This document shows, piece by piece, positions 1-45,238 of a stretch of 51,616 nt of DNA. Made by a program: the position numbers and the translations under genes. Below the pieces are notes generated by a model. The model made no database searches and was not told the DNA's origin. It saw only the letters and a program-made list of their open reading frames with translations. Numbering within the stretch: position 1 is the first letter of the stretch; each line of letters begins with the position of its first letter. Source of the stretch: Dehalococcoidia bacterium (GTDB taxonomy: Bacteria; Chloroflexota; Dehalococcoidia; Dehalococcoidales; CSSed11-197); NCBI GenBank assembly GCA_003552785.1, contig PUOQ01000084.1, positions 1 to 51,616 of the forward strand, in the 5' to 3' direction.

Positions 1-1554
<1,554 letters not shown>

Positions 1555-11982: not shown

Positions 11983-12048
11983 TTGACACACCAATCAATA
12001 ACGTGCTACATTACTAATCAATTATTTAATGTACATAAGTATGTACAT
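11983..12048 (+). promoter_or_regulatory. Putative promoter plus duplicated palindromic operator upstream of the yefM-like gene
   Basis: TTGACA (11983-11988), 18 nt, TACATT (12007-12012). Two copies of the self-complementary octamer ATGTACAT follow at 12029-12036 and 12041-12048, 12 bp centre to centre. Confidence 0.5.
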
Positions 12049-12063
12049 TTTTTGGTGCATATC

Positions 12064-12309
12064 ATGCTTGAAGCAATATCAGCAACCCAGGCCCGCCAGC
12101 AACTGCTCCCGATACTGGAGCAGGTAAACGCTGAAAGAAAGCGGTACATGGTAACCCGGCACGGTAAACCAGTAGCTGTAATCATGAGCTATGAAGATTT
12201 CTCCCGTATTGAAACTACCCTGAGGCTGTTTGATAATAAAGAGTTATCACGAAATTTTAATGAAGGCCTTAACGACGAAAGGGAAATGCGGCTAAACCCT
12301 TTTGAGTAA
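12064..12309 (+). CDS. yefM: Phd/YefM-family type II antitoxin
   Basis: 81 aa; MLEAISATQARQQLLPILEQVNAERKRYMVTRHGKPVAVIMSYEDFSRIETTLRL matches the Phd/YefM pattern. I chose the ATG at 12064 because the track start at 11983 coincides with the -35 box. Confidence 0.8.
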   Translation: MLEAISATQARQQLLPILEQVNAERKRYMVTRHGKPVAVIMSYEDFSRIETTLRLFDNKELSRNFNEGLNDEREMRLNPFE

Positions 12310-13102
12310 GCTGCCGGTAAGAATGAACCAGATACTTATTACTGACCAGGTAAAGAATCGACTAAATCAACTAAACGAGTTTGAAAAGACCCGATTCAGG
12401 CGCACCATTCGGCAACTGGCAATAAATGAATTGCAGGGAGTTAAGCTATGGGGCAGACGGGGTCTTTTCATCTACGAGTTTGCCACCGGAGACAGTATAA
12501 TCTACCGAAAACAAAACGGTGGCAGTGAAACGATTATTCTCGGCCTCTCTGTCAAATCTTCTTCTGCCGGGCAAAGAATAAAGGTCTCGGCGGTGGTTCT
12601 GGCTGCTGGGAAAACTGCCTCGCCTTTCGAGTTGCCGCTTCCTTACATGGTAGGCTCACTTTTAGACGGTGGTATTGACGACCTTATAGTTGTACTCGGT
12701 CAACAGTCGGAGCAATTCAAGCAAGAGCTTACTGATCAACCGGTAAAAATAGTCACCATCCCTGAAGGCGAACAGCAACTGAGCCGCTCAATTCGTAAAG
12801 GACTGAAAACAATAGCCCCGGACTGTGGAGCTGTCTTGCTGACCCTGGGAACCCGTCCTTTCATCAGGCCCGGCCTGATAAACATTTTGATCCGTAGTTA
12901 CAAACTGGAAAACACGCCCATCCTTGTGCCGACCTTTGAACACGAGCCCGGCCACCCGGTTGTTTTCTCACCCGGAATATTACCGGAGTTTATGCGGTTA
13001 AAAGGCAACACCGGAGGCAAGGCTGTACTAAAACACCACAGCCAGGATCTTCGCCACCTGGAAGTAGAAGACCGGGGCGTAATTGCATGCCTGGGTTCAT
13101 AA
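12302..13102 (+). CDS. Fusion protein: N-terminal RelE/ParE-fold toxin-like domain plus a degenerate MobA/MocA-like NTP-transferase domain
   Basis: 266 aa; it overlaps the antitoxin stop by 8 nt (TTG at 12302; an alternative ATG is at 12323). Residues 8-85 fit the RelE/ParE pattern. Residues 95-266 fit MocA-like (VSAVVLAAGK, IVVLG, PGHPVVF), but the LAAGxSxRMG and GDxP motifs are altered. Confidence 0.6.
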   Translation: MSKLPVRMNQILITDQVKNRLNQLNEFEKTRFRRTIRQLAINELQGVKLWGRRGLFIYEFATGDSIIYRKQNGGSETIILGLSVKSSSAGQRIKVSAVVLAAGKTASPFELPLPYMVGSLLDGGIDDLIVVLGQQSEQFKQELTDQPVKIVTIPEGEQQLSRSIRKGLKTIAPDCGAVLLTLGTRPFIRPGLINILIRSYKLENTPILVPTFEHEPGHPVVFSPGILPEFMRLKGNTGGKAVLKHHSQDLRHLEVEDRGVIACLGS

Positions 13103-13144
13103 TGATCAATAAATTCAACCGGATAGAATGGAGTTAAAAGAAAA

Positions 13145-14155
13145 ATGAGGATGATTTTCGTTTGCATCGTTGCTGCAATCACAAGCATAAGCATGTTGCT
13201 CGCAGGCTGCACCAATCCGAATAAACCTGTCGGCATGGCAGTTGAGTTCAATGCTCATGCAACTTCAGCATACACAGCTCTCGAAAAAGGCTGGTATGCA
13301 GAGGAGGGCCTTTCCTTCACTGCACACGAGAGCTATGTCACAGGAATGGCTCTGGCTTCCTCACTTGCACGCGGCGATATCGGAGTAGCATATATGTGCC
13401 TTGTGCCTGCTATTACTGCTTACGCCAATGCAGGGGTAGATTTGAAAATAATAGCCGGCACCCACAAAGATGGTTACGGGCTGGCTGTTAATCCGGATAA
13501 AATCAAAGCCGTCGATGACCTTCAAAATCCAGGAATACGTATAGCCAGTGTTCAACCCGGTGGCGCAGTAGATGTAGTACTTAACAAAACTATAGACTAT
13601 TTTGAACTGGATAAAAAAAAGGTTTTGGACAATACATTGCGCATGAACCCGGCCCGAGCCTTGATCTCAATACAATCAGGCCAGGTTGATGCTGTTTTTC
13701 TTCCTGAACAATGGTCCAGTATGGCCGAAGAGCATGGTTTTGAAATGCTCTTGGAAAGTAAAGACGTCTGGCCGGGGCTGCAGGGAGGGGTTCTGGTAGT
13801 GAAACAGGAACTTATTAACAGCTCGCCTGAAACAATTAAAGCACTGCTTAAAGTAGACTCAAAAACAGTTGACTGGATAAACTCAAACCCGGAAGAAGCC
13901 TCGCAAATTCTCTCAAGTGCCATGCAGGGAACAATAAAACAGGAAAAGCCGACTGATTCTGCATTCGAAACTGCAGCCGGGTTTGACTACTCACCAGAAG
14001 TGATGCTGAGAGCCATCAACCGTATTAATTTTTCACCTGCAATTGAGATCTCGGGCGTACAGGAGGTGATAGACTACCTGGAGGAACTGGACTATATTAG
14101 AAGCAGTTTCCCGGCAGAAGAAATAATGGATTTGAGCTTCCTTCTGGCGGATTAA
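13145..14155 (+). CDS. ABC transporter substrate-binding lipoprotein, NMT1/SsuA (NitT/TauT) type
   Basis: 336 aa with a signal peptide and lipobox (LLAGC). The overall pattern is NMT1/THI5-like (GVAYMCLVPAITAYANAGVDLKIIAG..DGYGLAV). Confidence 0.8.
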   Translation: MRMIFVCIVAAITSISMLLAGCTNPNKPVGMAVEFNAHATSAYTALEKGWYAEEGLSFTAHESYVTGMALASSLARGDIGVAYMCLVPAITAYANAGVDLKIIAGTHKDGYGLAVNPDKIKAVDDLQNPGIRIASVQPGGAVDVVLNKTIDYFELDKKKVLDNTLRMNPARALISIQSGQVDAVFLPEQWSSMAEEHGFEMLLESKDVWPGLQGGVLVVKQELINSSPETIKALLKVDSKTVDWINSNPEEASQILSSAMQGTIKQEKPTDSAFETAAGFDYSPEVMLRAINRINFSPAIEISGVQEVIDYLEELDYIRSSFPAEEIMDLSFLLAD

Positions 14156-14161
14156 CCGGAT

Positions 14162-14935
14162 ATGAAAGGCGTCAAAATCATTCTTAAAAAGTTGAACCCC
14201 GGCTGGGGAATTGTTCCCATTTTTATTTTTTTAATTATCTGGGAGCTGGCTGCCCGATTTAACCTCGTCCCCGGTCAGTTTTACTTTCCTCCTTTTTCAG
14301 AAGTTATGGCCGAGTTTTTTAACCTGGCATCAACCGGGGTCCTGGGTGATAACTTCCTTGCCAGCCTGTGGAGGGTCCTGGCCGGTCTTACCGCCGGTTC
14401 ACTTGCCGGTGTGATGCTCGGGGTAATAATGGGATGGAAGGAAATAGCACATAAGTCATTAAACCCGATAGTCAGCCTGTTTTTGCCCATCCCGCCACTG
14501 GGCTGGTTGCCCCTGCTGCTGCTGTGGATAGGTATCAATGAATGGCTTCCCATTACCATAATATTTATTTCATCTTTCTTCCCGGTGCTTTATAATACTA
14601 TCGCCGGCATAAAAAGTGTCGACAAAGATTATGTAAAGGTATCGCGCACCCTGGGTGCATCTGACATCAAAATCCTTACCACGGTGGTCATGCCACTGGC
14701 ATTACCCATGATTTTTACCGGTCTAAGATTAAACGCAGGCCATGCTTGGCGGGTGGTAATCGCGGCTGAAATGGTCGCCATACCCACAGGCATAGGGGCG
14801 CTTATGCTTCGTGCTGAAAGCCTGATCCGGATTGATATCATTATAGTATGCCTCATCGTACTGGCCGTTATGACATTTATATTTGACAAGTTGTTCGGCT
14901 ACATGGAGAACAAAGTGACCGCCAAGTGGAGTTAA
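14162..14935 (+). CDS. ABC transporter permease (NitT/TauT family)
   Basis: 257 aa with 6 TM segments and an EAA loop VSRTLGASDIKILTTVVMPLALPMIFTGLRL. Confidence 0.85.
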   Translation: MKGVKIILKKLNPGWGIVPIFIFLIIWELAARFNLVPGQFYFPPFSEVMAEFFNLASTGVLGDNFLASLWRVLAGLTAGSLAGVMLGVIMGWKEIAHKSLNPIVSLFLPIPPLGWLPLLLLWIGINEWLPITIIFISSFFPVLYNTIAGIKSVDKDYVKVSRTLGASDIKILTTVVMPLALPMIFTGLRLNAGHAWRVVIAAEMVAIPTGIGALMLRAESLIRIDIIIVCLIVLAVMTFIFDKLFGYMENKVTAKWS

Positions 14936-14936
14936 C

Positions 14937-16022
14937 ATGCCGAATATTGAATTAAAAAACATAAGCAGATATATATGTAAAAACATTAACCTCAAAATCA
15001 ACGAGGGTGAACTCATGGTGGTTCTGGGTCCATCCGGTTCTGGAAAAACGACTTTACTCAATGTTATTGCCGGACTTACAGACTATGAAGGTTCAGTAAG
15101 TTTCGACAACAAACCGGTTGACGGCATTGATGCCAGCCACCGTCGTATAGGATACCTTTTTCAGCAACTGGTACTGTTCCCCCATATGGATGTTAAAAAA
15201 AATATTGCCTACAGCCTGGAATTAAACAAGCTTCCCCGCAGCGATATAGAAAACCGGGTTGACGAACTGTTGCGCCTTGCAAAAATAAAACACCTTGGCA
15301 ACCGCTACCCAAAGTATTTAAGCGGAGGCGAAAAACAAAGAGTGGCCCTGGCCAGGGCCCTGGCCCCATCACCCAAAGTGCTGCTGCTGGATGAACCTTT
15401 AAGCAGCCTCGACCTGCAGACTGCCAAATACCTCAGAATGGAACTGAGGCAATTTCAGAAAAACCTGGGTATAACCATGGTATACGTAACTCATGACCTT
15501 TCCGAGGCAGAAGAAATTGCCGACCGAATAGCGGTCATGAACCATGGCAATATCGAACAGGTAGCAACACCTGACGAAGTGTTTTTCTTCCCTGAAAACC
15601 AGGTTGTTTCCAATTTTATAGGAGCTCCGAATATACTGGACTGCTGCTCATGTCGAAAATTGGAACAGGGTGTAGTTGAAGCCGACTGCAACGGCTTGCC
15701 GGTAATTGTTGCACATGAAGGCAACTCGGTGAATCGTATCGCTTTCCTTCCAAGGGATATTTTCCTGTCAGAAACCCGGCCACCGGGCCCTGGAGTTAAC
15801 CGTTTTGAAGGTAATGTAAGCGACATACGCTATACAGACGACTCGGTACGCGTTACAGTAGATGTACGCAGCCATCAGCTGGTAGCTGAAGTTCCCTACC
15901 ATCTTTTTGAAGATATGGCGCTGGCACCGGGTAAACATGTATATTTGATTTTAAAACTGAGGCGAATCCGTGTTTACGATTGCAACTGTAATGACAGAAT
16001 GCACGACACAGGGCTAAAATAA
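14937..16022 (+). CDS. ABC transporter ATP-binding protein with a C-terminal TOBE-type regulatory domain (ModC/CysA-like architecture)
   Basis: 361 aa with Walker A GPSGSGKTT, signature LSGGEKQR and Walker B LLLDEP. A tail of about 120 aa follows, NFIGAPN...NRFEGNVSDIRYTDDSVRVTVDV...GKHVYLILKLRRIRVY. Confidence 0.88.
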   Translation: MPNIELKNISRYICKNINLKINEGELMVVLGPSGSGKTTLLNVIAGLTDYEGSVSFDNKPVDGIDASHRRIGYLFQQLVLFPHMDVKKNIAYSLELNKLPRSDIENRVDELLRLAKIKHLGNRYPKYLSGGEKQRVALARALAPSPKVLLLDEPLSSLDLQTAKYLRMELRQFQKNLGITMVYVTHDLSEAEEIADRIAVMNHGNIEQVATPDEVFFFPENQVVSNFIGAPNILDCCSCRKLEQGVVEADCNGLPVIVAHEGNSVNRIAFLPRDIFLSETRPPGPGVNRFEGNVSDIRYTDDSVRVTVDVRSHQLVAEVPYHLFEDMALAPGKHVYLILKLRRIRVYDCNCNDRMHDTGLK

Positions 16023-16087
16023 AATGTCTCCAAACATCTACATTAAAAAGCAGAGAAAATAATTACAAAGAAAGGTAGGTCTAAGCC

Positions 16088-16891
16088 ATGTCATTAGCAA
16101 GCTTAAAAATCCTGGTAAGAGGGGCCGGAGAACAGGCAACAGCAATCGCCCACCGCCTGCATCAATGTCATTTCAGGGTAGTCCTCACTGAAACGTCCCG
16201 ACCTGAAGCGGTCAGGAGGGAGGTAGCATTCAGCGAAGCGGTACATGACAAGGAAAAAACCGTTGAAGGTGTTACAGCACGGCTTGTAAATTCTCCTGAC
16301 GATGTATTCGGGACCTGGCAAAATGTTGAAATCCCACTGTTAATTGATCCTGAGGCAAAGGTAAAAACGGTTTTAAAACCTGACGTTATTATTGATGCAA
16401 CCATCGCCAAAAAAAACCTGGGCAATAAAATGGATGACGCCCGGCTGGTAATCGGTCTCGGAGTGGGGTTTCATGCCGGCAGAGATGTGGATGTTGTAAT
16501 CGAGACCAATCGCGGCCATAACCTTGGCCGGGTTATCCGGCACGGAGAAGCTGAAGCTGATACCCGCATACCCGGCAGCATAATGGGCTACACCGAAGAA
16601 CGCGTGCTGAGAGCACCGCAGGATGGGGTTTTAAATACCCATTACGCCATCGGTGATATCGTAAAGTCCGGTGATGTGGTAGCCGAAATAAGTGGAGCCC
16701 CGATCAAAACAGTTATCGGTGGAGTAGTGCGGGGGCTACTTAGAAATGGTACCACCGTACACAAGGGCATGAAATGCGGTGATGTCGATCCTCGCGGTAT
16801 CAAGGAATACTGTTTCACCATTTCCGATAAAGGCAGAGCTCTGGGCGGAGGTGTACTGGAAGCTATCCTTGCTGAATTTAATACACATTAA
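16088..16891 (+). CDS. yqeB: YqeB / EF2563-family selenium-dependent molybdenum hydroxylase system protein
   Basis: 267 aa; ILVRGAGEQATAIAHRLHQCHFRVVLTE..PEAVRREVAFSEAVHD matches my memory of the EF2563/YqeB family N-terminus. This is recognition only, with no search run. Confidence 0.7.
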   Translation: MSLASLKILVRGAGEQATAIAHRLHQCHFRVVLTETSRPEAVRREVAFSEAVHDKEKTVEGVTARLVNSPDDVFGTWQNVEIPLLIDPEAKVKTVLKPDVIIDATIAKKNLGNKMDDARLVIGLGVGFHAGRDVDVVIETNRGHNLGRVIRHGEAEADTRIPGSIMGYTEERVLRAPQDGVLNTHYAIGDIVKSGDVVAEISGAPIKTVIGGVVRGLLRNGTTVHKGMKCGDVDPRGIKEYCFTISDKGRALGGGVLEAILAEFNTH

Positions 16892-16908
16892 CAGGGGGCA
16901 ACAGGTTT

Positions 16909-17508
16909 ATGCAAATAAGGGATCTAAAAAGAGTTAACGCTTTATGGCGAGATATTTACCCCTTCCTGGCAGCTCAGGCCATGGAACTCTATGGCAAAAG
17001 GGAAGGAGACGTTCTTGAACTCGGCCCGTTCTCAGGGGGAATAGCAATCGAACTGGCCAGCAACTATCCGGGAGTTAATATAACTATCGCCGATGAGCGT
17101 AATGAAATGCTCGAGTCTTTTAAGAGCCAAGTCTCGGAATGTCGATTGGAAAAACGCATAAAAGTAACACAGACGAACCTGGATAAATTAAATTTTGAAA
17201 ACGAGACTTTCAACCTGGTTATCTTCCGGGGAGCTTTTTTCTTTTTACCAGGCACAAAAACACTGCTTCCCGAAATATACCGGGTCTTAAAGCCCGGTGG
17301 TCTTGCATTTGTTGGCGGGGGCTACGGAAAAGATGCCACCAAAGAGGCGATCGAAGCTATAGCAGATGAATCCCGCATTTTAAATGACCGGCTTGGACGG
17401 CGGCGCTTGAGCATTGAGGAGTTGCAGCACCTGGTAGACGAGGCGGGCATGACGCCTGCCACCCGGATTTGTGAAGAAGGCGGGGTATGGCTGGTAATAA
17501 ACAAGTAG
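16909..17508 (+). CDS. Class I SAM-dependent methyltransferase
   Basis: 199 aa with motif I VLELGPFSGGIAIELA and post-I/II elements (ITIADE, LVIFRGAFFF, LKPGGLAFVGGGYG). Confidence 0.75.
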   Translation: MQIRDLKRVNALWRDIYPFLAAQAMELYGKREGDVLELGPFSGGIAIELASNYPGVNITIADERNEMLESFKSQVSECRLEKRIKVTQTNLDKLNFENETFNLVIFRGAFFFLPGTKTLLPEIYRVLKPGGLAFVGGGYGKDATKEAIEAIADESRILNDRLGRRRLSIEELQHLVDEAGMTPATRICEEGGVWLVINK

Positions 17509-18284
17509 CCGGCCTTAAAGGCATCAGCCTGACAACGGCGCTTGAACTATCCAGCCGGGAAATAATAAGCCTGGTCGGAGGTGGAGGCAAGAGCACTCTT
17601 ATGAATGCTCTTGCAAAAGAACTCGAGGGCGCCGGCAATACAGTGATTACTACTACTACTACCAGGATTTTACCTGCCCAGGCTACCGGATACCTCATTT
17701 GCGAAAATAACGAAGACCTCCTGTTTGAAAAAGCCAGACAAAATTTATCTAAAAAACACCACCTGACTCTGGCTGGAGGCCGTGACGGAGAGTACAAATT
17801 AACCAGTATCGGAGTTGACTGCGTCGAAAAAATTGCCTCGATTGCCAGCTATATCGTTATAGAAGCTGATGGAGCCGGCTGCAAGCCGATTAAAGCCCCG
17901 GGCCGAGCTGAACCGGTAATTCCCCGCGCCACAACCATTGTTATCGCCGTTGTTGGCATCGACTGCCTGGGTAAAAAAGTATCAGAAATAGTTTTCAGGC
18001 CGGAGATTGCCTGTGAACTTATTCAAATAAAACCTGATGACACGGTTTCAACAGGCATGGTTGCCAGCTTGATTCTGCACCCTCAAGGTATAACCAAAGG
18101 AAGCCCGCCTGAGGCCCGCAAGGTTGTTTTTATTAACAAAGTAAACAGCGATCTTGAGCTCGCCAGAGCTGTTGAGATTGCAAAAGTTATAAATAAGCAC
18201 TCTAAATTCAGCCATGTTATAATAGGACAGGCTCGGGAAAAACAACCCGTAATAAAAGTATTAAAATCAGGAAAACACAGGTAA
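17487..18284 (+). CDS. yqeC: YqeC-family selenium cofactor biosynthesis accessory protein
   Basis: 265 aa with a P-loop-like ISLVGGGGKSTLMNALA and VITTTTTRI, as in the YqeC family. It overlaps the methyltransferase by 22 nt. Confidence 0.7.
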   Translation: MAGNKQVAGLKGISLTTALELSSREIISLVGGGGKSTLMNALAKELEGAGNTVITTTTTRILPAQATGYLICENNEDLLFEKARQNLSKKHHLTLAGGRDGEYKLTSIGVDCVEKIASIASYIVIEADGAGCKPIKAPGRAEPVIPRATTIVIAVVGIDCLGKKVSEIVFRPEIACELIQIKPDDTVSTGMVASLILHPQGITKGSPPEARKVVFINKVNSDLELARAVEIAKVINKHSKFSHVIIGQAREKQPVIKVLKSGKHR

Positions 18285-18297
18285 ACAGGGGAGAGAA

Positions 18298-19071
18298 ATG
18301 GAACTTGATATTTATGAAGAAGTATCCAGATTAAAAGCTGAGGGTAAAGAAGCCGCGCTCGTAACCCTGATAGCATCCAGCGGCTCGACTCCACGTGGAG
18401 AAGGGGCCAAAATGATGGTTTTAGCCGACGGCACTATCAAGGGAACCATTGGCGGGGGAAGCGTTGAGAGGGAAATAGTTGAAGTCGCCAAAGAAGTGTT
18501 GCGCAAAGGTAAACCGCAACGTTTTAAGTATGAACTGAAAAAACCCGATGAAGGGGTCGGCATGATATGCGGTGGAGACATGGAGGTATTCATAGAGCCG
18601 GTTCTGCAAACACCAATGGTATTTATTTTCGGCGCTGGCCATATAGCCCATTCACTATCAAAAATGGCTGGACTTGCCGGCTTCAAAGTCACCGTTGTTG
18701 ACGACCGCCCTGGATTTGCGACTCCAGAACGATTTCCAGAGGCGGAAAGGACCCTGACCAGCGATTTTGCACAATCGTTTAAGGAACTGAAAATCGGCAA
18801 GGGCAGCTTTATCGTTATCGTTACCTACGGGCATAAAAATGACCAGGTTGTACTGGAAAAAGCTTTGAAAACGCCTGCTTTTTACATTGGCATGATAGGT
18901 TCAAGAACCAAAAACCAGGCTGTATACGACAACCTCAAGCAAAAAGGGGTTACCGATGAAGAGATCAATCGGGTACACGCCCCGATAGGTTTAAACATAA
19001 AGGCCCACACGCCCGCCGAGATTGCAGTCAGCATACTCGGGGAAATGATTCAGGTTAAAAGGTCTGGATAG
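18298..19071 (+). CDS. xdhC: XdhC/CoxI-family molybdoenzyme maturation factor
   Basis: 257 aa with an XdhC N-domain (AALVTLIASSGSTPRGEGAKMMVLADGTIKGTIGGGSVE) and a Rossmann C-domain (VFIFGAGHIAHSL..VTVVDDRP). Confidence 0.85.
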   Translation: MELDIYEEVSRLKAEGKEAALVTLIASSGSTPRGEGAKMMVLADGTIKGTIGGGSVEREIVEVAKEVLRKGKPQRFKYELKKPDEGVGMICGGDMEVFIEPVLQTPMVFIFGAGHIAHSLSKMAGLAGFKVTVVDDRPGFATPERFPEAERTLTSDFAQSFKELKIGKGSFIVIVTYGHKNDQVVLEKALKTPAFYIGMIGSRTKNQAVYDNLKQKGVTDEEINRVHAPIGLNIKAHTPAEIAVSILGEMIQVKRSG

Positions 19072-19186
19072 ATTTAAATCAGCCCGGCCTTTTAATATTT
19101 CTGTATAAGAAGTATTCTTGATTCTTTTCAACCCGGACTTACAACTATTAATATTGAAAAACACCTTGTCTTGCAGGAGGAAACAA

Positions 19187-20464
19187 ATGGCTTATGACTG
19201 GCATAAACCCTACCAGGAGCTAAAAAAGTATATTGAAAATAACCCCAAGATAGCAATCGAGAAAAATGCTGTATTTATACCTCAGGATGTCAGGGGTGAT
19301 TTTTATTCTCACTTTGACAAAGTGAGAGATACATTTCTTAAACAGCATTTCAGCCATGAAGTCACCATGGCTGAAGAACTGAAGGGGGAATTTATCAAGC
19401 TGGAAAAGCAGGTCACCTCCAGTTTAAACATTGCTGGAGAGGTGAAAATGGCACCGCCCTTGAGGCGTTTTCTCAACGACCCGGTCGACGGGCTAATGCG
19501 GCCATTGTTCAATCCTCTTTTTGACCTGCTGAAGGATAAAATTGATGAAGGTACATTCGAGGAAAATTGCCTGGCCGATATAAGGGCTTTTTTAAAAAAG
19601 CACCTCCGAACAGGTTACGAAAGATGGGCTGTGCTTTGCCTGCTTAAATGGCTGGAACCAACAAAAATGCTGACACTGCCCTTAAAAGATTTTGACCTGT
19701 ATTCATCATCAGGCGAAGGAGACAGCCAGTACGAACGTGTTGAAGTTCTTCCGGGTACCAGCGCCTTAAAAGAACTGCTGTTTGATTATTCAACCCACGT
19801 ATCTTTTGCTGTGCCCGACATTATCGTCTACTCTTCAAAGCTTAACAAATATACAGCTGTAAAAACAGGTTTTATCGAACCGAGGTGGAAGGCAAGATTT
19901 GTAAGTGAATACCGCGAGTGGTTGCCATTAAACCAGTTGACTCAGGTGTTTACACCGAACAACCCCTGGCCCAGCATACTTGTCTACATCGACGACCATG
20001 TTGAAAACATTAAGCTTACTGCCGACCGTTACCAGTTTTGCCAGCCAGACATGATTGTAAATACTCTGCCTGAAGACGACTGGTTTAACCCGGAGGAAAC
20101 AAAACGATTAAAAGCACATACAGAATTAATAAAACCGCTAATGGGAAATCTGATTGTATGCCGTGGTAATGTACCTGAAGAAGCTTCCAGGCTCCTTGCC
20201 GGGGAAAATACAACCGAAGAAAATGCATCTGAGCCGGGTAATCTTGAAGACGAGGGCCAAACAGGCCTGGACCAGGCTCAACCTGAAACAGGGGTTTATC
20301 ATGCAGGAAATGCAAGTCTGGATTCAACCCAAAAGGAACCAGCCGATAAAACTAAGACTGCAAAGGGCATGATGAAAATTATAAGTGCTGGTTATGATTA
20401 TTCCATATTTACCTCGGCCATTGAAAAACTTGTGCTGCCTGAAGATAATTCTCAGCCACAATAA
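19187..20464 (+). CDS. Hypothetical protein (425 aa), no family recognised
   Basis: A long ORF on the operon strand, with AGGAGG (19175-19180) 6 nt before the ATG at 19187. It has a helical N-terminal part, a beta-rich core and an acidic low-complexity region near the C-terminus. Confidence 0.6.
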   Translation: MAYDWHKPYQELKKYIENNPKIAIEKNAVFIPQDVRGDFYSHFDKVRDTFLKQHFSHEVTMAEELKGEFIKLEKQVTSSLNIAGEVKMAPPLRRFLNDPVDGLMRPLFNPLFDLLKDKIDEGTFEENCLADIRAFLKKHLRTGYERWAVLCLLKWLEPTKMLTLPLKDFDLYSSSGEGDSQYERVEVLPGTSALKELLFDYSTHVSFAVPDIIVYSSKLNKYTAVKTGFIEPRWKARFVSEYREWLPLNQLTQVFTPNNPWPSILVYIDDHVENIKLTADRYQFCQPDMIVNTLPEDDWFNPEETKRLKAHTELIKPLMGNLIVCRGNVPEEASRLLAGENTTEENASEPGNLEDEGQTGLDQAQPETGVYHAGNASLDSTQKEPADKTKTAKGMMKIISAGYDYSIFTSAIEKLVLPEDNSQPQ

Positions 20465-34501: not shown

Positions 34502-35344
34502 GTGTATAAGATATTAGAAACAAAAAACCTTGCAAAAAGTATCTACCTGTTTAGAATCGAGGCACCGCTCATTGCCAGCAAGGCCAGGGCAGGGCAATTT
34601 GTCGTCCTTAGAGTTAGCCCTAAAGGTGAACGTATTCCTCTAACCCTGGCTGAATGGGACCCTCAAAGAGGAACAATAACCATTGTATTTATGATAGCAG
34701 GGGCTACTACCTGCCAGCTATCGAAGCTAAAAGAGGGCGACAACATAACCGACATGCTGGGTCCACTGGGCAACCCTACCGAAATCACAAACTATGGTAC
34801 TGTAGCCTGCGTTGCCGGTGGATTTGCCATAGCCGTCATCCGCCCGGTAGTTAAAGCTTTGAAAGAAGCAGGAAACCGGGTGATTTCGATTGTAGGAGTC
34901 AGAACCAGAGATCTTTTGTTCTGGGAAGAGGAGTTGCGCAAAGAAAGTGACGAGCTTATATTAACCACTGACGACGGCTCATACGGGCGCAAAGGCATGG
35001 TTACCGACCCGCTGAAAGAACTGCTTGAGGGGCCGGAAAGCATAAACCGTGTTATTGCCATCGGACCTACGGTGATGATGAAGTTTATCTCCCTGACAAC
35101 CAAACCTTCTGGCATAAAAACCATTACAAGCCTTAATCCTATTATGGTTGATGGAACAGGCATGTGCGGTTGCTGCCGTGTATCAGTTGGGGGTGAGACC
35201 AAATTTGCATGTGTAGACGGGCCTGAATTTGACGGGCATCTGGTTGACTGGGACGAACTTATGAGCAGGCAATCAACCTACCTGGACCAGGAAAATCACG
35301 CCTATAAGTGCCTTACCGGCACCGGCGAGGAGCACCGGAGTTAA
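34502..35344 (+). CDS. NfnA-like / sulfide-dehydrogenase-type FAD/NAD(P)- and 2Fe-2S-binding subunit
   Basis: 280 aa with RAGQFVVLR, ERIPLTL and a C-terminal GTGMCGCCRV..KFACVDGPEF. The start is GTG. Confidence 0.8.
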   Translation: MYKILETKNLAKSIYLFRIEAPLIASKARAGQFVVLRVSPKGERIPLTLAEWDPQRGTITIVFMIAGATTCQLSKLKEGDNITDMLGPLGNPTEITNYGTVACVAGGFAIAVIRPVVKALKEAGNRVISIVGVRTRDLLFWEEELRKESDELILTTDDGSYGRKGMVTDPLKELLEGPESINRVIAIGPTVMMKFISLTTKPSGIKTITSLNPIMVDGTGMCGCCRVSVGGETKFACVDGPEFDGHLVDWDELMSRQSTYLDQENHAYKCLTGTGEEHRS

Positions 35345-35347
35345 ATT

Positions 35348-36796
35348 ATGAATAAACCTAAAATAAATAGAGTTGAAATGCCGCGACAGAAAGCAGACAA
35401 ACGTAAAGGCAATTTTAACGAAGTAGCCCAGGGTTACACTCACGAAATGGCAAAAACCGAGGCATCACGCTGTCTACAATGCAAGAAATACCCCTGTATC
35501 AAGGGCTGCCCGGTAAACATCGATATTCCCGGATTCATAAAAGCTATCAGGGATGATGACCTGCCTGGTGCGGTCGGCGTGCTTAAAAAAGATAACATCC
35601 TGCCGGGCATCTGCGGCCGCGTATGCCCCCAGGAAACACAATGCGAAGAACTCTGCGTATTTAATAAAAGCGGTAATGCAATTGCTATCGGGCGCCTGGA
35701 GCGCTTTGTTGCCGACTGGGAACTTAAAAATAAGGACAAGGTCAAACCTGTAGCTGTATCCCGGTCAACAGGTAAAAAAGTTGCCGTAGTCGGTTCAGGG
35801 CCGGCCAGCCTTACCATAGCAGCCGATCTTGCCCGCATGGGGCATGATGTTACGCTCTTTGAAGCCCTGCACACCACCGGCGGCGTTCTGATTTACGGTA
35901 TTCCTGATTTCCGGCTGCCCTCCGAAATAGTCGGGGAGGAAGTTGATAACATCAAGGCGCTGGGAGTCAAGGTTGAACTTAACTATCTAATAGGTACAAT
36001 TGAGTCGGTTGATGAACTCCTGGGCCGCTTTGATGCCGTTTTCCTGGGTACTGGCGCCGGGCTGCCCATTTTTATGAACCTGCCGGGGGAAAATTTAAGC
36101 GGTGTTTATTCAGCCAATGAATTCCTTACCCGTGTCAACCTGATGCAAGCATACAGGTTCCCCGAATACCACACACCCGTCAAGGTTGGCAAACAGGTTG
36201 CTGTCATCGGTGGCGGCAATGTTGCCATGGATGCAGCCCGTTCTGCACTCAGGCTGGGAGCCGATAAAGTATATGTCGTATACCGGCGCAGCGAAGCGGA
36301 AATGCCGGCAAGGCGGGAAGAGGTCGAAAATGCCTATGAAGAAGGTATTGAATTCATCTTTCTGGCCAATCCCACCCGTTTTCTGGGCGATGAAAAAAAG
36401 GTCCTCAAGGCTATTGAGTGCATACGCATGGAGCTGGGCGAGCCCGATTCCAGTGGCCGGCGGCGGCCATTGCCGGTATCAGGAAGCGAGTTTACACTGG
36501 ATGTCGACGTAGCCATAGTGGCACTGGGTACAAACCCCAATCCACTTATTACCAGCACCACACCGGACCTCAAAACAACGCGGTGGGGTACCCTGGTGTG
36601 CGATGAGGACACCGGCCGTACCACCTGCCCGGGCGTATGGGCCGGCGGAGACGTGGTCACAGGCTCAGCCACTGTAATAAGCGCCATGGGCGCTGCCAGG
36701 CGCGCAGCTGTTGACATCGACAAGTACCTAAAAGGGGACTACATCCGGCCCGGTCAATACTGGCGGGAATCAAAAGGAGAAGAACCCGCTGAGTAG
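35348..36796 (+). CDS. NfnB / GltD-like NADPH-dependent oxidoreductase (glutamate synthase small-subunit family)
   Basis: 482 aa with CLQCKKYPCIKGCPVNIDIP and CGRVCP Fe-S motifs, plus two dinucleotide folds (VAVVGSGPASL, VAVIGGGNVAMD). Confidence 0.85.
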   Translation: MNKPKINRVEMPRQKADKRKGNFNEVAQGYTHEMAKTEASRCLQCKKYPCIKGCPVNIDIPGFIKAIRDDDLPGAVGVLKKDNILPGICGRVCPQETQCEELCVFNKSGNAIAIGRLERFVADWELKNKDKVKPVAVSRSTGKKVAVVGSGPASLTIAADLARMGHDVTLFEALHTTGGVLIYGIPDFRLPSEIVGEEVDNIKALGVKVELNYLIGTIESVDELLGRFDAVFLGTGAGLPIFMNLPGENLSGVYSANEFLTRVNLMQAYRFPEYHTPVKVGKQVAVIGGGNVAMDAARSALRLGADKVYVVYRRSEAEMPARREEVENAYEEGIEFIFLANPTRFLGDEKKVLKAIECIRMELGEPDSSGRRRPLPVSGSEFTLDVDVAIVALGTNPNPLITSTTPDLKTTRWGTLVCDEDTGRTTCPGVWAGGDVVTGSATVISAMGAARRAAVDIDKYLKGDYIRPGQYWRESKGEEPAE

Positions 36797-43914: not shown

Positions 43915-43943
43915 GTTTGGATAACCATATTCCCGGCCGGATT

Positions 43944-44354
43944 ATGGCCATCGACATCGGTGACAAATGGCTCGGAGTAGCACTTTCCGACCCTTTAAGA
44001 ATAACCGCGACTCCCTGGTCAAGCATAAGGTGTGAAAACGAAGAGGAAATAATAAGCACTGTGTGTGAATTTGCTAAAACCAACAAAATCGCCATGCTGG
44101 TCGCCGGATTGCCCCGCTCTATGGATGGGAGCAGCGGGCAACAGGAAAAGAAAGTGCGCCAGATGGTCGAAAATATTGCCGGAAAAGTCGGTGTCCCGGT
44201 GGTTTATCAGGATGAAAGGCTGTCTACCAGCCAGGCCAGAGACATCCTTGAGAGCAAAAAGGCAAAACCGGGAACCCGGGACGATGCACTGGCAGCTGCC
44301 ATCATCCTGCAGGAATATCTGAATGCAAACTGTAAACCGGGCGGACCATATTAA
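43944..44354 (+). CDS. ruvX: YqgF/RuvX putative pre-16S rRNA nuclease / Holliday junction resolvase-like
   Basis: IMAIDIGDKWLGVALSD, GLPRSMDGSSG and DERLST motifs are present. The start could be the ATG at 43944 or the TTG at 43917; the track start at 43896 overlaps alaS. Confidence 0.85.
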   Translation: MAIDIGDKWLGVALSDPLRITATPWSSIRCENEEEIISTVCEFAKTNKIAMLVAGLPRSMDGSSGQQEKKVRQMVENIAGKVGVPVVYQDERLSTSQARDILESKKAKPGTRDDALAAAIILQEYLNANCKPGGPY

Positions 44355-44377
44355 CAAATAAATTTCGTATAGAATAC

Positions 44378-45238
44378 ATGGCCAAACCTATAAGTTCAAT
44401 CTCAAACTATATCAATGTATTAAAACCCAGAGAAACCGGGTTGCTGGTTTTTATCGGCACAGCCGCAGCAATCATAGCCGGAGGAGGCAGTCCACCATGG
44501 GATACTGTTTTACTGGCAGTATTTGCCATCCTTTTTGCCAGCGCTGCTGCCAACGGACTTACCAACTACCTGGACCGCGATCTTGACAGCCGCATGCCGC
44601 GCACCCATAACCGGGCACTGGCAGCCAGGCGAATATACCCGGCTGAAAAGGTACTGCCTTTGCTGATTATCCTTGCTTTAGTCGGCTTAATACTTTCCTG
44701 GCTGATTAATCCTTATGTTTTCGCCTCTGACCTTATTGGCACTCTAGTGGCAATATCTTTTCGTAAAAAAGTAACCTGCGTGTTTCCCCAGGGCGCGATT
44801 GCCGGGTGTGCCCCGGTACTGATGGGGTGGTTCGCCATTCAGCCGGAGTTGAGCTGGCAAATAGGGTTGATATGCCTTTTGATAATCGTGTGGCTGCCAT
44901 CACATGTCTGGGGTGTTATGGTAGCCCGGCGCAATGAATACTTAAATGCCGGAATCACCTTTTTTCCGATGAGCGTACAACCGGCAACAGCCCTCAATCT
45001 GATGGCTGCCTCAAGCGTTGTTTTGCTCGGTGTCTCCATAGTTCTTTATTTTGCGGGAAACTTTGGGTGGCTGTACCTTGCATCAAGCATTATACTGGGA
45101 TTAATCATGGTGCTTTCAAGCATCAGGCTGGCAAAAACAGCCGACTCTAAAGGTGCCTGGCGTTTATACAAGATTTCCAGCTTTCCGTATCTGGGGCTAT
45201 TATTTTTATTTATGTGCCTTGACGTATGGCTTTTATGA
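44378..45238 (+). CDS. UbiA-family prenyltransferase, heme O synthase (CtaB/CyoE)-like
   Basis: 286 aa with about 8 TM segments. The first motif is NYLDRDLDSRMPRTHNRAL. The second region, HVWGVMVARRNEYLNAGITFFPM, resembles the CtaB HFWALA..DDY..AGIPMLP. Confidence 0.75.
   Translation: MAKPISSISNYINVLKPRETGLLVFIGTAAAIIAGGGSPPWDTVLLAVFAILFASAAANGLTNYLDRDLDSRMPRTHNRALAARRIYPAEKVLPLLIILALVGLILSWLINPYVFASDLIGTLVAISFRKKVTCVFPQGAIAGCAPVLMGWFAIQPELSWQIGLICLLIIVWLPSHVWGVMVARRNEYLNAGITFFPMSVQPATALNLMAASSVVLLGVSIVLYFAGNFGWLYLASSIILGLIMVLSSIRLAKTADSKGAWRLYKISSFPYLGLLFLFMCLDVWLL

What the first reader, a model, noticed from the sequence alone, without database searches (positions are those of the whole stretch)
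12064..20464. Orphan selenium-dependent molybdenum-hydroxylase maturation cluster (YqeB, YqeC, XdhC, MocA-like) wired to a transporter, with no hydroxylase or selD in 51 kb
Seen: ten co-directional ORFs with gaps from -22 to +65 nt up to xdhC, then 115 nt before the last gene. The order is yefM-like, RelE/ParE-MocA-like fusion, ABC binding protein, permease, ATPase, YqeB (EF2563 family), SAM methyltransferase, YqeC, XdhC/CoxI and a 425-aa unknown. Established: YqeB, YqeC, XdhC-like and MocA-like genes are accessory markers that comparative genomics linked to selenium-dependent molybdenum hydroxylases with a labile Se cofactor (Haft and Self, Biology Direct 2008). They are normally adjacent to xanthine-dehydrogenase-family subunits and associated with selD. 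In this window I find no molybdopterin-binding large subunit, no FAD or 2Fe-2S small subunit and no selD. The accessory genes instead sit with an importer and a methyltransferase under a TA-like regulator. Inference: either a self-contained uptake-plus-cofactor-maturation module serving a client enzyme encoded elsewhere, or these maturation factors serve something other than the known hydroxylases.
Basis: partly seen in the sequence, partly recalled or inferred. Interest (0 to 1): 0.7.

Follow-up and report, generated by a model that had tools for sequence, protein, structure and literature searches.

The report
Orphan selenium-molybdenum cofactor maturation operon
A Dehalococcoidales bacterium carries a real ten-gene operon for importing an oxyanion and maturing the selenium-containing molybdenum cofactor, and although having the client enzyme elsewhere is ordinary for this system, the operon shows three undescribed add-ons: a dedicated methyltransferase, an antitoxin-derived regulator and an unusual importer.

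Summary
Ten co-directional genes lie at 12064-20464 with exactly the stated spacing. YqeB and YqeC pass their NCBIfam equivalog cut-offs, XdhC passes both Pfam domains, and no XDH-family hydroxylase or selD lies in the 51.6 kb window, which is a whole contig of a Dehalococcoidales MAG.

The "orphan" state is not unusual. Of 32 species-representative YqeB loci with at least 8 kb on both sides, 20 have no hydroxylase within about 10 kb, and selD is nearby in 1 of 80. Orthologous clusters in three other contigs (L005, L009, L169) do sit beside three-subunit XDH-family hydroxylases. The best reading is therefore an ordinary split system with the client elsewhere.

Three features appear to be undescribed:
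1. The methyltransferase is a dedicated third partner. YqeB-MT-YqeC occurs in 24 of 34 informative loci, and MT-YqeC fusions occur in 12 of 80.
2. The "MocA-like" protein is a RelE-fold domain fused to a MocA domain that has lost its catalytic motifs. It is paired with a YefM antitoxin and a textbook YefM operator (two TGTACA cores 12 bp apart).
3. An NMT1/TauC-type importer replaces ModAB in the slot where sister loci have molybdate transporters, but keeps a ModC-like ATPase.

The parts
11983..12012 (+). Promoter-like site, TTGACA-18 nt-TACATT with an extended TG, in the divergent rsmD/yefM intergenic region
   Evidence: 10 of 12 matches. This is a consensus match only. The position is conserved relative to the operator in L002, L006 and L007.
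12028..12049 (.). Operator-like 22-bp perfect inverted repeat, AATGTACATAAGTATGTACATT. It contains two ATGTACAT palindromes whose TGTACA cores are 12 bp centre-to-centre, 34 and 22 nt before the yefM start.
   Evidence: The window has only 4 TGTACA sites in 51.6 kb, and this is the only close pair. The same pair occurs in L002/L092 and L109, with one-mismatch pairs in L117 and L130. It matches the published YefM-YoeB operator architecture (PMC1802561).
12064..12309 (+). Phd/YefM-family antitoxin homologue (81 aa), the putative DNA-binding repressor of the operon
   Evidence: PF02604 at 60.1 bits and TIGR01552 at 51.7 bits. It overlaps the next gene by 8 nt. It always precedes the fusion gene in related loci.
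12302..13102 (+). RelE/ParE-fold N-domain (about residues 10-83) fused to a degenerate MocA/MobA-like domain (about residues 95-260). Putative co-repressor or ligand sensor, probably not a cytidylyltransferase.
   Evidence: PF12804 covers residues 117-247 only. The AF2 model has a b-a-a-b-b-b N-domain with block-mean pLDDT 73-89. Foldseek matches RelE 4fxe_E (E 7e-4, TM 0.77) and Rv0371c (E 7e-6). The catalytic motifs are missing relative to five canonical MocAs. The family has only 10 clusters in 5.8 billion proteins.
13145..14155 (+). Extracytoplasmic lipoprotein substrate-binding protein of the NMT1/SsuA (nitrate/sulfonate/bicarbonate) family
   Evidence: PF13379 at 67 bits and TIGR01728 at 98.5 bits, below its cut-off. 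The lipobox LLAGC is read directly from the sequence. Orthologues occur in L002 and L075, and in L018 (46% identity) next to XdhC and MocA.
14162..14935 (+). ABC importer permease, TauC/SsuC/NtrB-like
   Evidence: PF00528 at 101 bits. SaoP (157 bits) and TauC (140 bits) are both below their cut-offs. It is not homologous beyond superfamily level to the ModB-type permease of sister loci.
14937..16022 (+). ABC ATPase with a C-terminal TOBE regulatory domain, ModC/WtpC-like
   Evidence: PF00005 and PF03459. WtpC is the best NCBIfam hit at 300 bits, below its 440 cut-off. It is 51% identical over its full length to the ModC of the ModABC loci L005 and L009.
15991..16020 (+). Possible internal promoter, ATGACA-18 nt-TAAAAT, at the 3' end of the ATPase gene, just upstream of the 65-nt gap before yqeB
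   Evidence: 10 of 12 matches. This is a consensus match only and was not tested.
16088..16891 (+). YqeB (EF2563 family), selenium-dependent molybdenum cofactor maturation protein
   Evidence: TIGR03309 at 354 bits against a cut-off of 220. It is 47% identical to residues 271-524 of E. coli YqeB. There are 7979 homologues at E<=1e-10.
16909..17508 (+). Class I SAM-dependent methyltransferase, a dedicated partner of YqeB and YqeC. It overlaps yqeC by 22 nt.
   Evidence: PF13649 and PF08241. The family has 581 clusters. YqeB-MT-YqeC occurs in 24 of 34 informative metagenome loci, and MT-YqeC fusion ORFs in 12 of 80 loci plus L011.
17487..18284 (+). YqeC, a P-loop protein (Walker A GGGGKST) of the selenium cofactor trait
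   Evidence: TIGR03172 at 194 bits against a cut-off of 73, and PF19842 at 139 bits. The Walker A motif is read from the translation.
18298..19071 (+). XdhC-family Moco chaperone, equivalent to the N-terminal half of E. coli YqeB
   Evidence: PF02625 at 80 bits and PF13478 at 159 bits. NF045664 scores 313 bits against a 350 cut-off, and TIGR02964 scores 151 against 161.6. It is 37.5% identical to residues 1-253 of E. coli YqeB.
19187..20464 (+). Uncharacterised conserved protein (425 aa) that recurrently follows xdhC in Chloroflexi-type clusters. Its membership of the operon is uncertain because of the 115-nt gap.
   Evidence: No Pfam or NCBIfam hit even at E<=1. The family has 410 representative clusters. 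The AF2 model has pLDDT 85.6 but no PDB neighbour below E 0.4. A family member follows XdhC in 14 of 50 cases, and does so for a member at 29% identity.

Best explanation
This is a vertically inherited Dehalococcoidales operon with three parts.

(i) An ABC importer sits in the position where sister genomes have a ModABC molybdate transporter. It most likely brings in a Mo/W-type oxyanion.

(ii) A maturation core, YqeB-methyltransferase-YqeC-XdhC, prepares the selenium-containing molybdopterin-cytosine-dinucleotide cofactor and hands it to an XDH-family molybdenum hydroxylase. That hydroxylase is encoded elsewhere in the genome, as are selD and a catalytic MocA.

(iii) A repurposed toxin-antitoxin pair acts as regulator. 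The YefM homologue binds the paired TGTACA operator that lies between the -10 box and its own start codon and represses the operon. The RelE-fold domain of the next protein acts as its co-repressor. That protein's catalytically dead MocA domain plausibly senses a nucleotide or Moco-type ligand.

Shown: gene identities, synteny, loss of the catalytic motifs, the operator sequence and its conservation, the methyltransferase linkage and fusions, the importer swap, and hydroxylase adjacency in orthologous clusters.

Inferred: co-transcription, repression, the ligand, the transported substrate, the methyl acceptor, and the existence of the client and selD in this genome.
For: - **Identities.** YqeB and YqeC pass their equivalog cut-offs, and XdhC passes both Pfam domains.
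- **Link to the known system.** E. coli YqeB equals the window's XdhC plus YqeB fused. YqeB has genetic support in selenium-dependent purine catabolism (PMC11448449).
- **Synteny and purifying selection.** The same ten genes occur in the same context in L002. Core-only derivatives (L003, L004) retain the operator and a truncated yefM.
- **Client.** Orthologous clusters sit beside FAD/FeS/Mo hydroxylase genes in L009 (Dehalococcoidales), L005 (Chloroflexi) and L169 (YqeB-MT-YqeC-FAD-FeS-MoL contiguous). These hydroxylases are 4-hydroxybenzoyl-CoA-reductase-like or XdhA-like.
- **Separation is the norm.** 20 of 32 fully flanked loci lack a hydroxylase within 10 kb, and selD is nearby in 1 of 80. 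Haft and Self say the same about selD.
- **Importer.** Sister loci carry ModA (TIGR01256, 79-184 bits against a 62.5 cut-off) and a ModB-type permease (TIGR01581, 217 against 210) in the same slot. The window's ATPase is 51% identical to their ModC, TOBE domain included. Orthologous ModE-N-like regulators (77% identical) precede both importer types.
- **Regulator.** The operator is documented, the RelE fold, and the motif loss. The fusion coexists with a canonical MocA in L006, L117, L172 and L173. The YefM-fusion pair travels with the core even when there is no transporter (L173).
Against: - No hydroxylase, selD or catalytic MocA could be shown for this genome. The window is the whole contig, and no tool could search the rest of the MAG.
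- The binding protein and permease belong to the nitrate/sulfonate/taurine family, for which no molybdate-binding member is known to me. The substrate could be something else, such as a selenium species.
- The AF2 model of the fusion is only moderately confident overall (mean pLDDT 64.5). The RelE match is E 7e-4, and sequence profiles do not detect RelE/ParE.
- The promoter and operator are sequence matches only. YefM-type operators are also what a plain autoregulated TA pair would have.
- YqeC showed no phenotype in C. difficile. The literature also warns that YqeB or YqeC alone may have Se-independent roles.
- 10 of 34 informative methyltransferase loci have the methyltransferase alone.
Confidence: 0.68

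Rival explanations
1. The maturation factors serve something other than an XDH-family hydroxylase. Possible clients are another Mo/W enzyme, or a Se-independent process.
For: 20 of 32 fully flanked YqeB loci have no hydroxylase within 10 kb, and 6 of 32 have YqeB with none of its usual partners. The uncultured Desulfobacterium locus L088 has MT-YqeC-XdhC with no YqeB or hydroxylase within 10 kb on an 836-kb contig. The literature notes that YqeB or YqeC alone may act in Se-unrelated processes.
Against: XdhC-family chaperones and MocA are known only in connection with XDH-family enzymes (my knowledge of the family). Whenever a Mo enzyme is adjacent to this clade's YqeB, it is a three-subunit XDH-family enzyme. 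No alternative Mo/W enzyme was seen recurrently next to the cluster.
Confidence: 0.12
2. The importer brings in selenium (selenite, selenate or an organoselenium compound) rather than Mo/W. The operon would then couple Se supply to Se-cofactor assembly.
For: The binding protein and permease are not ModA/ModB-type but of the nitrate/sulfonate/taurine family. This family includes oxyanion binders such as NrtA/CmpA-like domains. An orthologous binding protein sits between XdhC and MocA in a Desulfobacteraceae MAG, so the association is specific and crosses phyla. No dedicated Se transporter is known (PMC9312934; PMC11097638).
Against: The slot is occupied by a real ModABC in sister loci. The ATPase, with its regulatory TOBE domain, is orthologous to their ModC. 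The same ModE-N-like regulator precedes both importer types. There is no positive evidence for a selenium ligand.
Confidence: 0.2
3. The yefM gene and RelE-like domain form an ordinary toxin-antitoxin addiction module that merely sits upstream and autoregulates itself, with no regulatory role for the downstream genes.
For: The Phd/YefM family match and the canonical paired TGTACA operator are exactly what a plain yefM-yoeB module has. A second promoter-like site precedes yqeB.
Against: The RelE-fold domain exists only as a fusion to the MocA-like domain. That fusion family (10 clusters) is found only in front of YqeB clusters. The gaps to the downstream genes are short (+42, +6, +1 nt) and no plus-strand terminator was found. 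L003 and L004 have lost the module but kept the promoter and operator in front of yqeB.
Confidence: 0.1
4. The fusion protein is a working MocA with a divergent active site, so the cluster is a complete MCD-plus-Se maturation set.
For: It retains LAAG, the GLSxS-type motif, GHPV and GxxGG motifs shared with canonical MocAs. It also gives E 1e-23 hits to TIGR03310.
Against: It scores 84 bits against a cut-off of 186. It has lost the SxRMGxxK loop and the GDxP aspartate (N or T instead), which I recall being needed for nucleotide and metal binding in MobA/MocA. A canonical MocA is present as well in four related clusters.
Confidence: 0.1

Closest known systems
Selenium-dependent molybdenum hydroxylase accessory set YqeB/YqeC/MocA(YgfJ) of E. 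coli, Enterococcus faecalis (EF2563/EF2564) and Clostridioides difficile (Haft and Self 2008; Johnstone and Self 2024)
   Same: YqeB and YqeC are full members by curated HMM. An XdhC domain is present, as a separate gene here and fused to YqeB in E. coli. The setting is anaerobic.
   Different: There is no hydroxylase, selD, purine-catabolism gene or catalytic MocA within 51 kb. A dedicated SAM methyltransferase lies between YqeB and YqeC, and an ABC importer and a TA-derived regulator are present. None of these three is mentioned in the papers read here.
ModABC molybdate transporter with ModE regulation
   Same: The position in the operon matches that of ModABC in sister loci. The ATPase has a TOBE domain and is 51% identical to their ModC.
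   Different: The binding protein and permease are of the NMT1/SsuA and TauC/SsuC type, not ModA/ModB. Regulation is by a YefM-type protein rather than a ModE-type protein.
YefM-YoeB (Phd/YefM with RelE superfamily) type II toxin-antitoxin autoregulation (Kedzierska et al. 2007)
   Same: A Phd/YefM-family protein is followed by an overlapping gene with a RelE-fold domain. Paired TGTACA palindromes lie 12 bp centre-to-centre within 80 bp of the start codon.
   Different: The toxin-fold domain is fused to a 170-residue MocA-like domain. The pair heads an eight-to-ten-gene metabolic operon. Toxicity was not tested.
XdhC/CoxI Moco chaperones (e.g. Rhodobacter capsulatus XdhC)
   Same: Both Pfam domains are present and the length is similar.
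   Different: It falls just below the TIGR02964 cut-off. Its best model is the Desulfovibrio-type 'XdhC family aldehyde oxidoreductase maturation factor' NF045664, also below cut-off. It functions here alongside YqeB.
NCBIfam DVU_1551 NTP transferase / DVU_1556 methyltransferase / XdhC_rel_AOR set (Desulfovibrio vulgaris aldehyde oxidoreductase neighbourhood)
   Same: It is the same combination of fold types (MobA-like NTP transferase, XdhC relative, class I methyltransferase) associated with an XDH-family enzyme.
   Different: All three hits are below their cut-offs (83 against 315, 313 against 350, 29 against 155 bits). I found no paper describing the DVU cluster's function.
SAO system ABC transporter SaoX/SaoP/SaoA (Haft preprint 2022)
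   Same: It belongs to the same nitrate/sulfonate/taurine ABC subfamily.
   Different: Scores are far below the cut-offs (48 against 300, 157 against 295, 177 against 360). There is no Sec or CC motif and none of the other SAO genes is present.

Membership tests
YqeB (TIGR03309, EF2563 family) | Score above the curated equivalog cut-off over the full length | tested here: met
   354.3 bits against 220, covering residues 8-262 of 267.
YqeB (TIGR03309, EF2563 family) | [quoted passage not shown] | not testable with these tools
   The window is the whole contig and no tool searches the rest of the MAG. No selD was found in the window.
YqeC (TIGR03172 / PF19842) | Score above the curated cut-offs; P-loop motif | tested here: met
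   193.9 bits against 73.05, and PF19842 at 139 bits against 27.6. GGGGKST is present in the translation.
XdhC/CoxI chaperone | XdhC_CoxI N-domain plus XdhC Rossmann domain | tested here: met
   PF02625 at 80 bits and PF13478 at 159 bits. The equivalog models are narrowly missed (TIGR02964 at 150.7 against 161.6, NF045664 at 313 against 350).
MocA / YgfJ (TIGR03310) Moco cytidylyltransferase | Score above the equivalog cut-off | tested here: not met
   83.9 bits against 186.45. The match starts at profile position 20.
MocA / YgfJ (TIGR03310) Moco cytidylyltransferase | N-terminal (L/T)AAGxSxRMG nucleotide loop and the GDxP aspartate | tested here: not met
   In an alignment with five canonical MocAs there is a deletion of about 10 residues after LAAG, GDxP becomes G(T/N)RP, and the C-terminal DIDTxxD is absent. 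This holds in all 10 family members.
Selenium-dependent molybdenum hydroxylase locus (SDMH system) | XDH-family Mo, FAD and 2Fe-2S subunits in the same extended locus | tested here: not met
   None occurs in 51.6 kb. The criterion is met in the orthologous clusters L005, L009 and L169. In this clade it is met in only 12 of 32 fully flanked loci.
YefM-YoeB type II toxin-antitoxin | Phd/YefM-family antitoxin gene overlapping a downstream RelE-superfamily gene | tested here: met
   PF02604 at 60 bits, with an 8-nt overlap. The N-domain of the next protein has a RelE fold by AF2 and Foldseek (E 7e-4, TM 0.77), but no sequence-profile match.
YefM-YoeB type II toxin-antitoxin | Paired TGTACA operator, 12 bp centre-to-centre, within 80 bp of the start codon | tested here: met
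YefM-YoeB type II toxin-antitoxin | A free-standing toxin with RNase catalytic residues that is toxic and neutralised by the antitoxin | not tested
   The domain is fused to a MocA-like domain. Catalytic residues were not mapped, and toxicity needs an experiment.
ModABC molybdate transporter | ModA-family binding protein and ModB-family permease | tested here: not met
   The window's binding protein is NMT1/SsuA-type and its permease is TauC-type. modB scores only 27 bits against 183. Sister loci do meet the criterion.
ModABC molybdate transporter | ModC-type ATPase with a TOBE regulatory domain | tested here: inconclusive
   TOBE is present. TIGR02142 scores 205 bits against 285, and WtpC scores 300 against 440. 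The ATPase is 51% identical to the ModC of ModABC loci.
SAO organometallic transport system (SaoX/P/A) | Scores above the NCBIfam cut-offs | tested here: not met
   47.8 bits against 300, 157 against 295, and 177 against 360.

The most novel reading that the evidence does not exclude
The operon contains three undescribed components of the least understood selenium pathway:
(a) a SAM methyltransferase that is an obligate partner of YqeC (often fused to it) and methylates a selenium or cofactor intermediate;
(b) a domesticated toxin-antitoxin pair in which a RelE-fold domain fused to a dead MocA domain makes YefM-mediated repression responsive to Moco or nucleotide status;
(c) a new class of high-affinity Mo/W (or selenium) oxyanion importer, built from a nitrate/sulfonate-family binding protein and permease driven by a ModC-type ATPase.
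Probability: 0.3. Interest if true: 0.75.

Novelty: new variant of a known kind. Interest (0 to 1): 0.5.

Why it matters
[quoted passage not shown] Only YqeB has genetic support, and YqeC has no phenotype and no known activity.

- **Methyltransferase.** A methyltransferase that is wedged between YqeB and YqeC in most loci of a large clade, and physically fused to YqeC in about 15% of them, gives a concrete biochemical handle. It predicts a methylated intermediate, or a SAM-dependent step, in cofactor assembly.
- **Regulator.** The YefM plus RelE-fold::pseudo-MocA pair would be a clear case of a toxin-antitoxin module repurposed as a metabolite-responsive operon regulator.
- **Importer.** The swap of ModAB for an NMT1/TauC pair with the ModC-like ATPase retained points to a possible new binding-protein class for Mo/W. 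Less likely, it points to the long-sought dedicated selenium importer.
- **Client enzymes.** The hydroxylases found next to this YqeB clade are 4-hydroxybenzoyl-CoA-reductase-like. This suggests that selenium dependence of XDH-family enzymes extends from purine catabolism to anaerobic aromatic degradation.

Tried and rejected
- I suspected that 41293-45238 (873, 152 and 286 aa) was a missed hydroxylase. Pfam shows AlaRS, RuvX and UbiA.
- I looked for selD among the 333-337-aa ORFs. They are the DNA polymerase III delta subunit and a PHO4 phosphate transporter.
- I looked for a Moco riboswitch or other RNA element. Only a 23S rRNA fragment reached gathering thresholds, and there are no tRNAs.
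- I scanned for selenoprotein genes with an in-frame TGA, as a proxy for a Sec trait. All candidates are antisense or out of frame relative to real genes.
- I tried to walk beyond the window. The window is the entire contig, and the only other copy is a 6.4-kb contig.
- The SAO-system lead from the SaoX/SaoP/SaoA hits was rejected. Scores are far below the cut-offs and the similarity only reflects a shared ABC subfamily.
- The DVU_1551/DVU_1556 lead went nowhere. No literature was found and all scores are below the cut-offs.
- A Pfam search of the fusion's N-terminal 100 residues at E<=1 found nothing.
- A sequence search of the PDB with YqeB and YqeC found no solved relative.
- A fold search of the 425-aa unknown gave no significant match despite a confident model.
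- The Methanococcus selenium regulon paper was checked for a link to the methyltransferase or transporter. There is none.

Full report
**Observation.**

The ten co-directional ORFs reported at 12064-20464 are present with the stated spacing. The gaps are -8, +42, +6, +1, +65, +17, -22 and +13 nt, then +115 nt before the last gene.

Pfam and NCBIfam scans give the following identities:
- a Phd/YefM antitoxin homologue;
- a 266-aa protein whose C-terminal two thirds is a MobA-like NTP-transferase domain;
- an NMT1/SsuA-type binding protein with a lipoprotein signal (LLAGC);
- a TauC/SsuC-like permease;
- an ABC ATPase with a TOBE domain;
- YqeB (TIGR03309, 354 bits against a cut-off of 220);
- a class I SAM methyltransferase;
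- YqeC (TIGR03172, 194 bits against 73);
- XdhC (both Pfam domains);
- a 425-aa protein with no family.

I scanned every other ORF of at least 130 aa in the window. They are housekeeping genes: LeuRS, ProC, CoaD, RsmD, ClpC, OadB, AlaRS, RuvX, UbiA, Tgt, Fe-ADH, TrkAH, FolKP and others. An 873/152/286-aa trio that looked like hydroxylase subunits by size is AlaRS, RuvX and UbiA. There is no XDH-family subunit, no selD and no other Moco biosynthesis gene.

**Source and limits.**

The closest YqeB homologues are annotated as Dehalococcoidales MAG proteins. The longest contig carrying the identical protein is 51,616 bp, so the window is the entire contig. The question of what lies just outside it cannot be answered with these tools.

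**Synteny.**

An independent 160-kb contig (L002, YqeB 74% identical) has the same ten genes in the same housekeeping context. L172 is similar.

L003 and L004 (77% identical) have the same context but lack the YefM, fusion and ABC genes. Their 820-nt gap still holds the promoter, the TGTACA operator and about 35 codons of a truncated yefM, so they are deletion derivatives. L007 retains only a remnant of the binding-protein gene.

The core that is always kept is YqeB-methyltransferase-YqeC-XdhC.

**Is 'orphan' unusual?**

I fetched 80 loci around the nearest YqeB relatives from GTDB species representatives and annotated them with phmmer against a reference set. The set included the E. coli XdhA/B/C, XdhD, YgfK, SsnA, MocA, YqeB/C and SelD proteins.

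- Of 32 loci with at least 8 kb on both sides, only 12 have an XDH-family large subunit within about 10 kb.
- Of the 20 without one, 13 still have YqeC or XdhC.
- Six of the 32 have YqeB with none of its usual partners.
- SelD is nearby in 1 of 80 loci.

Haft and Self state that selD sits far from TIGR03309 genes in genomes that also have Sec or SeU traits. Separation from the client and from selD is therefore the common state in this clade.

**What is the client?**

Orthologous clusters do sit beside classical three-subunit hydroxylases:
- L009 (Dehalococcoidales): FAD-FeS-Mo genes 4-9 kb upstream of MocA-ModABC-YqeB-MT-YqeC-XdhC.
- L005 (Chloroflexi): two large subunits, a 2Fe-2S subunit and a FAD subunit 4 kb from the cluster.
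- L169: YqeB-MT-YqeC-FAD-FeS-MoL, contiguous.

The large subunits next to this YqeB clade score best against the 4-hydroxybenzoyl-CoA reductase alpha model in 9 of 10 cases. One of them (L044) passes the equivalog cut-off.

Together with what is known of XdhC and MocA (chaperone and cytidylyltransferase for XDH-family enzymes), this supports a client hydroxylase encoded elsewhere in the genome.

**Relation to the E. coli system.**

E. coli YqeB (541 aa) aligns to the window's XdhC over residues 1-253 (37.5% identity) and to the window's YqeB over residues 271-524 (47% identity). The window therefore encodes the two halves of E. coli YqeB as separate genes.

**The methyltransferase.**

Its family is well conserved: 581 clusters at E<=1e-15, about 199 aa, 50-67% identical.

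In 80 metagenome loci found with this family:
- the methyltransferase lies directly between YqeB and YqeC in 24 of 34 loci with at least 1 kb on both sides;
- YqeC is next to it or fused to it in 40 of 68 informative loci;
- 12 loci encode a single methyltransferase-YqeC fusion ORF, as does the species representative L011 (460 aa).

In 10 of the 34 loci the methyltransferase stands alone (for example L089 and L090). An uncultured Desulfobacterium has MT-YqeC-XdhC without YqeB.

None of the papers I read on the Se-cofactor trait mentions a methyltransferase. Its closest solved relative is an uncharacterised structural-genomics protein, 3dlc. The methyl acceptor is unknown. A selenium or cofactor-bound intermediate is my inference.

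**The 'MocA-like' fusion and the regulator.**

The fusion family is tiny: 10 clusters in 5.8 billion proteins, all full-length, all Dehalococcoidales or Dehalococcoidaceae.

Against five canonical MocAs it lacks about 10 residues containing SxRMGxxK. It has N or T instead of the GDxP aspartate, and it lacks the C-terminal DIDTxxD. It keeps LAAG, GLSxS, GHPV and GxxGG. It scores 84 bits against a cut-off of 186 for TIGR03310. A canonical MocA is present as well in L006, L117, L172 and L173. I conclude that it is probably not catalytic.

An AF2 model has mean pLDDT 64.5, with block means of 73-89 over the N-domain. It gives a b-a-a-b-b-b N-domain. Foldseek matches this to E. coli RelE (E 7e-4, TM 0.77, rmsd 2.7 Å over 83 columns), M. 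tuberculosis RelE1 and RelE2, and HigB2. The C-domain matches the MocA-like protein Rv0371c (E 7e-6). Sequence profiles do not detect the RelE fold.

Upstream of yefM lies a promoter-like TTGACA-18-TACATT. It is followed by a perfect 22-bp inverted repeat made of two ATGTACAT palindromes whose TGTACA cores are 12 bp apart, 34 and 22 nt before the start codon. The window has only four TGTACA sites, and this is the only close pair.

This is the published YefM-YoeB operator architecture: paired TGTACA, 12 bp centre-to-centre, within 80 bp of the start (PMC1802561). The pair recurs in L002/L092 and L109, with one mismatch in L117 and L130, as single sites in L007, L128 and L132, and not at all in L006.

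In L173 the YefM-fusion pair directly precedes YqeB with no transporter in between. The pair therefore belongs with the maturation core.

The model that follows is inference: YefM is the repressor, the RelE-fold domain is the co-repressor, and the dead MocA domain is a ligand sensor.

**The importer.**

In sister loci (L005, L006, L009, L071) the same slot holds a ModA that passes the TIGR01256 cut-off and a ModB-type permease that passes TIGR01581. In L009 there is also a ModE-N-like regulator.

The window, L002, L075 and L007 instead have an NMT1/SsuA-type binding protein and a TauC-type permease. These are unrelated to ModA and ModB beyond superfamily level. Yet the ATPases of the two types are 51% identical over their full length, including the TOBE regulatory domain.

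The ModE-N-like regulators that precede ModABC in L009 and the NMT1-type importer in L075 are 77% identical.

An orthologue of the binding protein (46% identity, with a signal peptide) sits between XdhC and MocA in a Desulfobacteraceae MAG with no permease or ATPase detected nearby.

I read this as non-orthologous replacement in a molybdate/tungstate-uptake slot, with a probability of about 0.55. A selenium species is the main alternative. No dedicated selenium transporter is known.

**The last gene.**

The 425-aa protein belongs to a family of 410 representative clusters with a conserved core of about 340 residues. The AF2 model is confident (pLDDT 85.6, pTM 0.82), but it has no PDB neighbour below E 0.4.

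A family member follows XdhC in 14 of 50 XdhC genes that have enough downstream sequence, and in three loci a canonical MocA follows it. A member at 29% identity is also downstream of XdhC. It is probably a lineage-specific partner of unknown function. I do not rely on it.

**Verdict.**

The cluster identity is right, and the orphan placement is real but ordinary. The system is a new variant of the known Se-dependent Mo-hydroxylase maturation set. Its interest lies in three parts:
- the dedicated methyltransferase, with its YqeC fusions;
- the TA-derived regulator with a pseudo-MocA domain;
- the ModAB-replacing importer.

Noticed in passing
window 1-1554 (- strand): The contig starts inside a bacterial 23S rRNA gene (model positions 1-1518 of 2925, 1357 bits). 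It could be used to place the MAG phylogenetically.
   Followed up: no
L044:5200-7509; also L037, L041, L063, L084, L029: The hydroxylase large subunits next to YqeB relatives are 4-hydroxybenzoyl-CoA reductase alpha-like. The one in L044 (a Spirochaetia MAG) passes the TIGR03194 equivalog cut-off (1205 bits against 995) and sits directly before YqeB-YqeC-MocA. This hints that 4-HBCR of strict anaerobes may use the selenium cofactor.
   Followed up: partly
L006:7849-8562; L075:7309-8767; L172:9263-9991: DUF4213/DUF364 proteins ('putative heavy-metal chelation') are inserted between the importer ATPase and YqeB in several Dehalococcoidia clusters. The window has none.
   Followed up: partly
L018:12442-13473: An orthologue (46% identity) of the window's NMT1-type binding protein, with a signal peptide, lies between XdhC and MocA in a Desulfobacteraceae MAG. 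No permease or ATPase was detected nearby.
   Followed up: partly
L003:8900-9723 and L004:1-840: These are deletion derivatives. The promoter, the TGTACA operator and about 35 codons of yefM remain, but the fusion and ABC genes are gone. The YqeB core is left behind an operator with no intact repressor gene.
   Followed up: yes
L009:2848-4952 (- strand): An MttB-family methyltransferase and a corrinoid (B12-binding) protein lie between the hydroxylase genes and the MocA-ModABC-YqeB cluster.
   Followed up: no
window 19187-20464: The uncharacterised 425-aa protein gives a confident AF2 model (pLDDT 85.6) with no significant PDB neighbour. The top, non-significant hits are PD-(D/E)xK restriction endonucleases. 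Residues 341-393 are disordered and acidic.
   Followed up: partly
L171:304-3588: Two tandem paralogues of the unknown family (382 and 379 aa) follow an XdhC gene on a short JGI contig.
   Followed up: no
window 50342-51064: A 240-aa protein has a TatA/B/E N-terminus followed by apolipoprotein-like helical repeats, which is unusually long for a TatA.
   Followed up: no
window 34502-36796: An adjacent pair, a DHODB-type Fe-S protein and a GltD-like protein, looks like an NfnAB/SudAB-type oxidoreductase. The GltD-like protein gave a spurious weak hit to E. coli YgfK in my phmmer screen.
   Followed up: no
L088:10001-12601: An uncultured Desulfobacterium (836-kb contig) has MT-YqeC-XdhC with no YqeB or hydroxylase within 10 kb, so the core can be split further.
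   Followed up: no
L013, L026, L040, L065, L074 and others: In 19 of 80 species-representative loci, YqeB has none of YqeC, XdhC, MocA or a hydroxylase within the sequence available. These loci are mostly Thermodesulfobacteriota.
   Followed up: no
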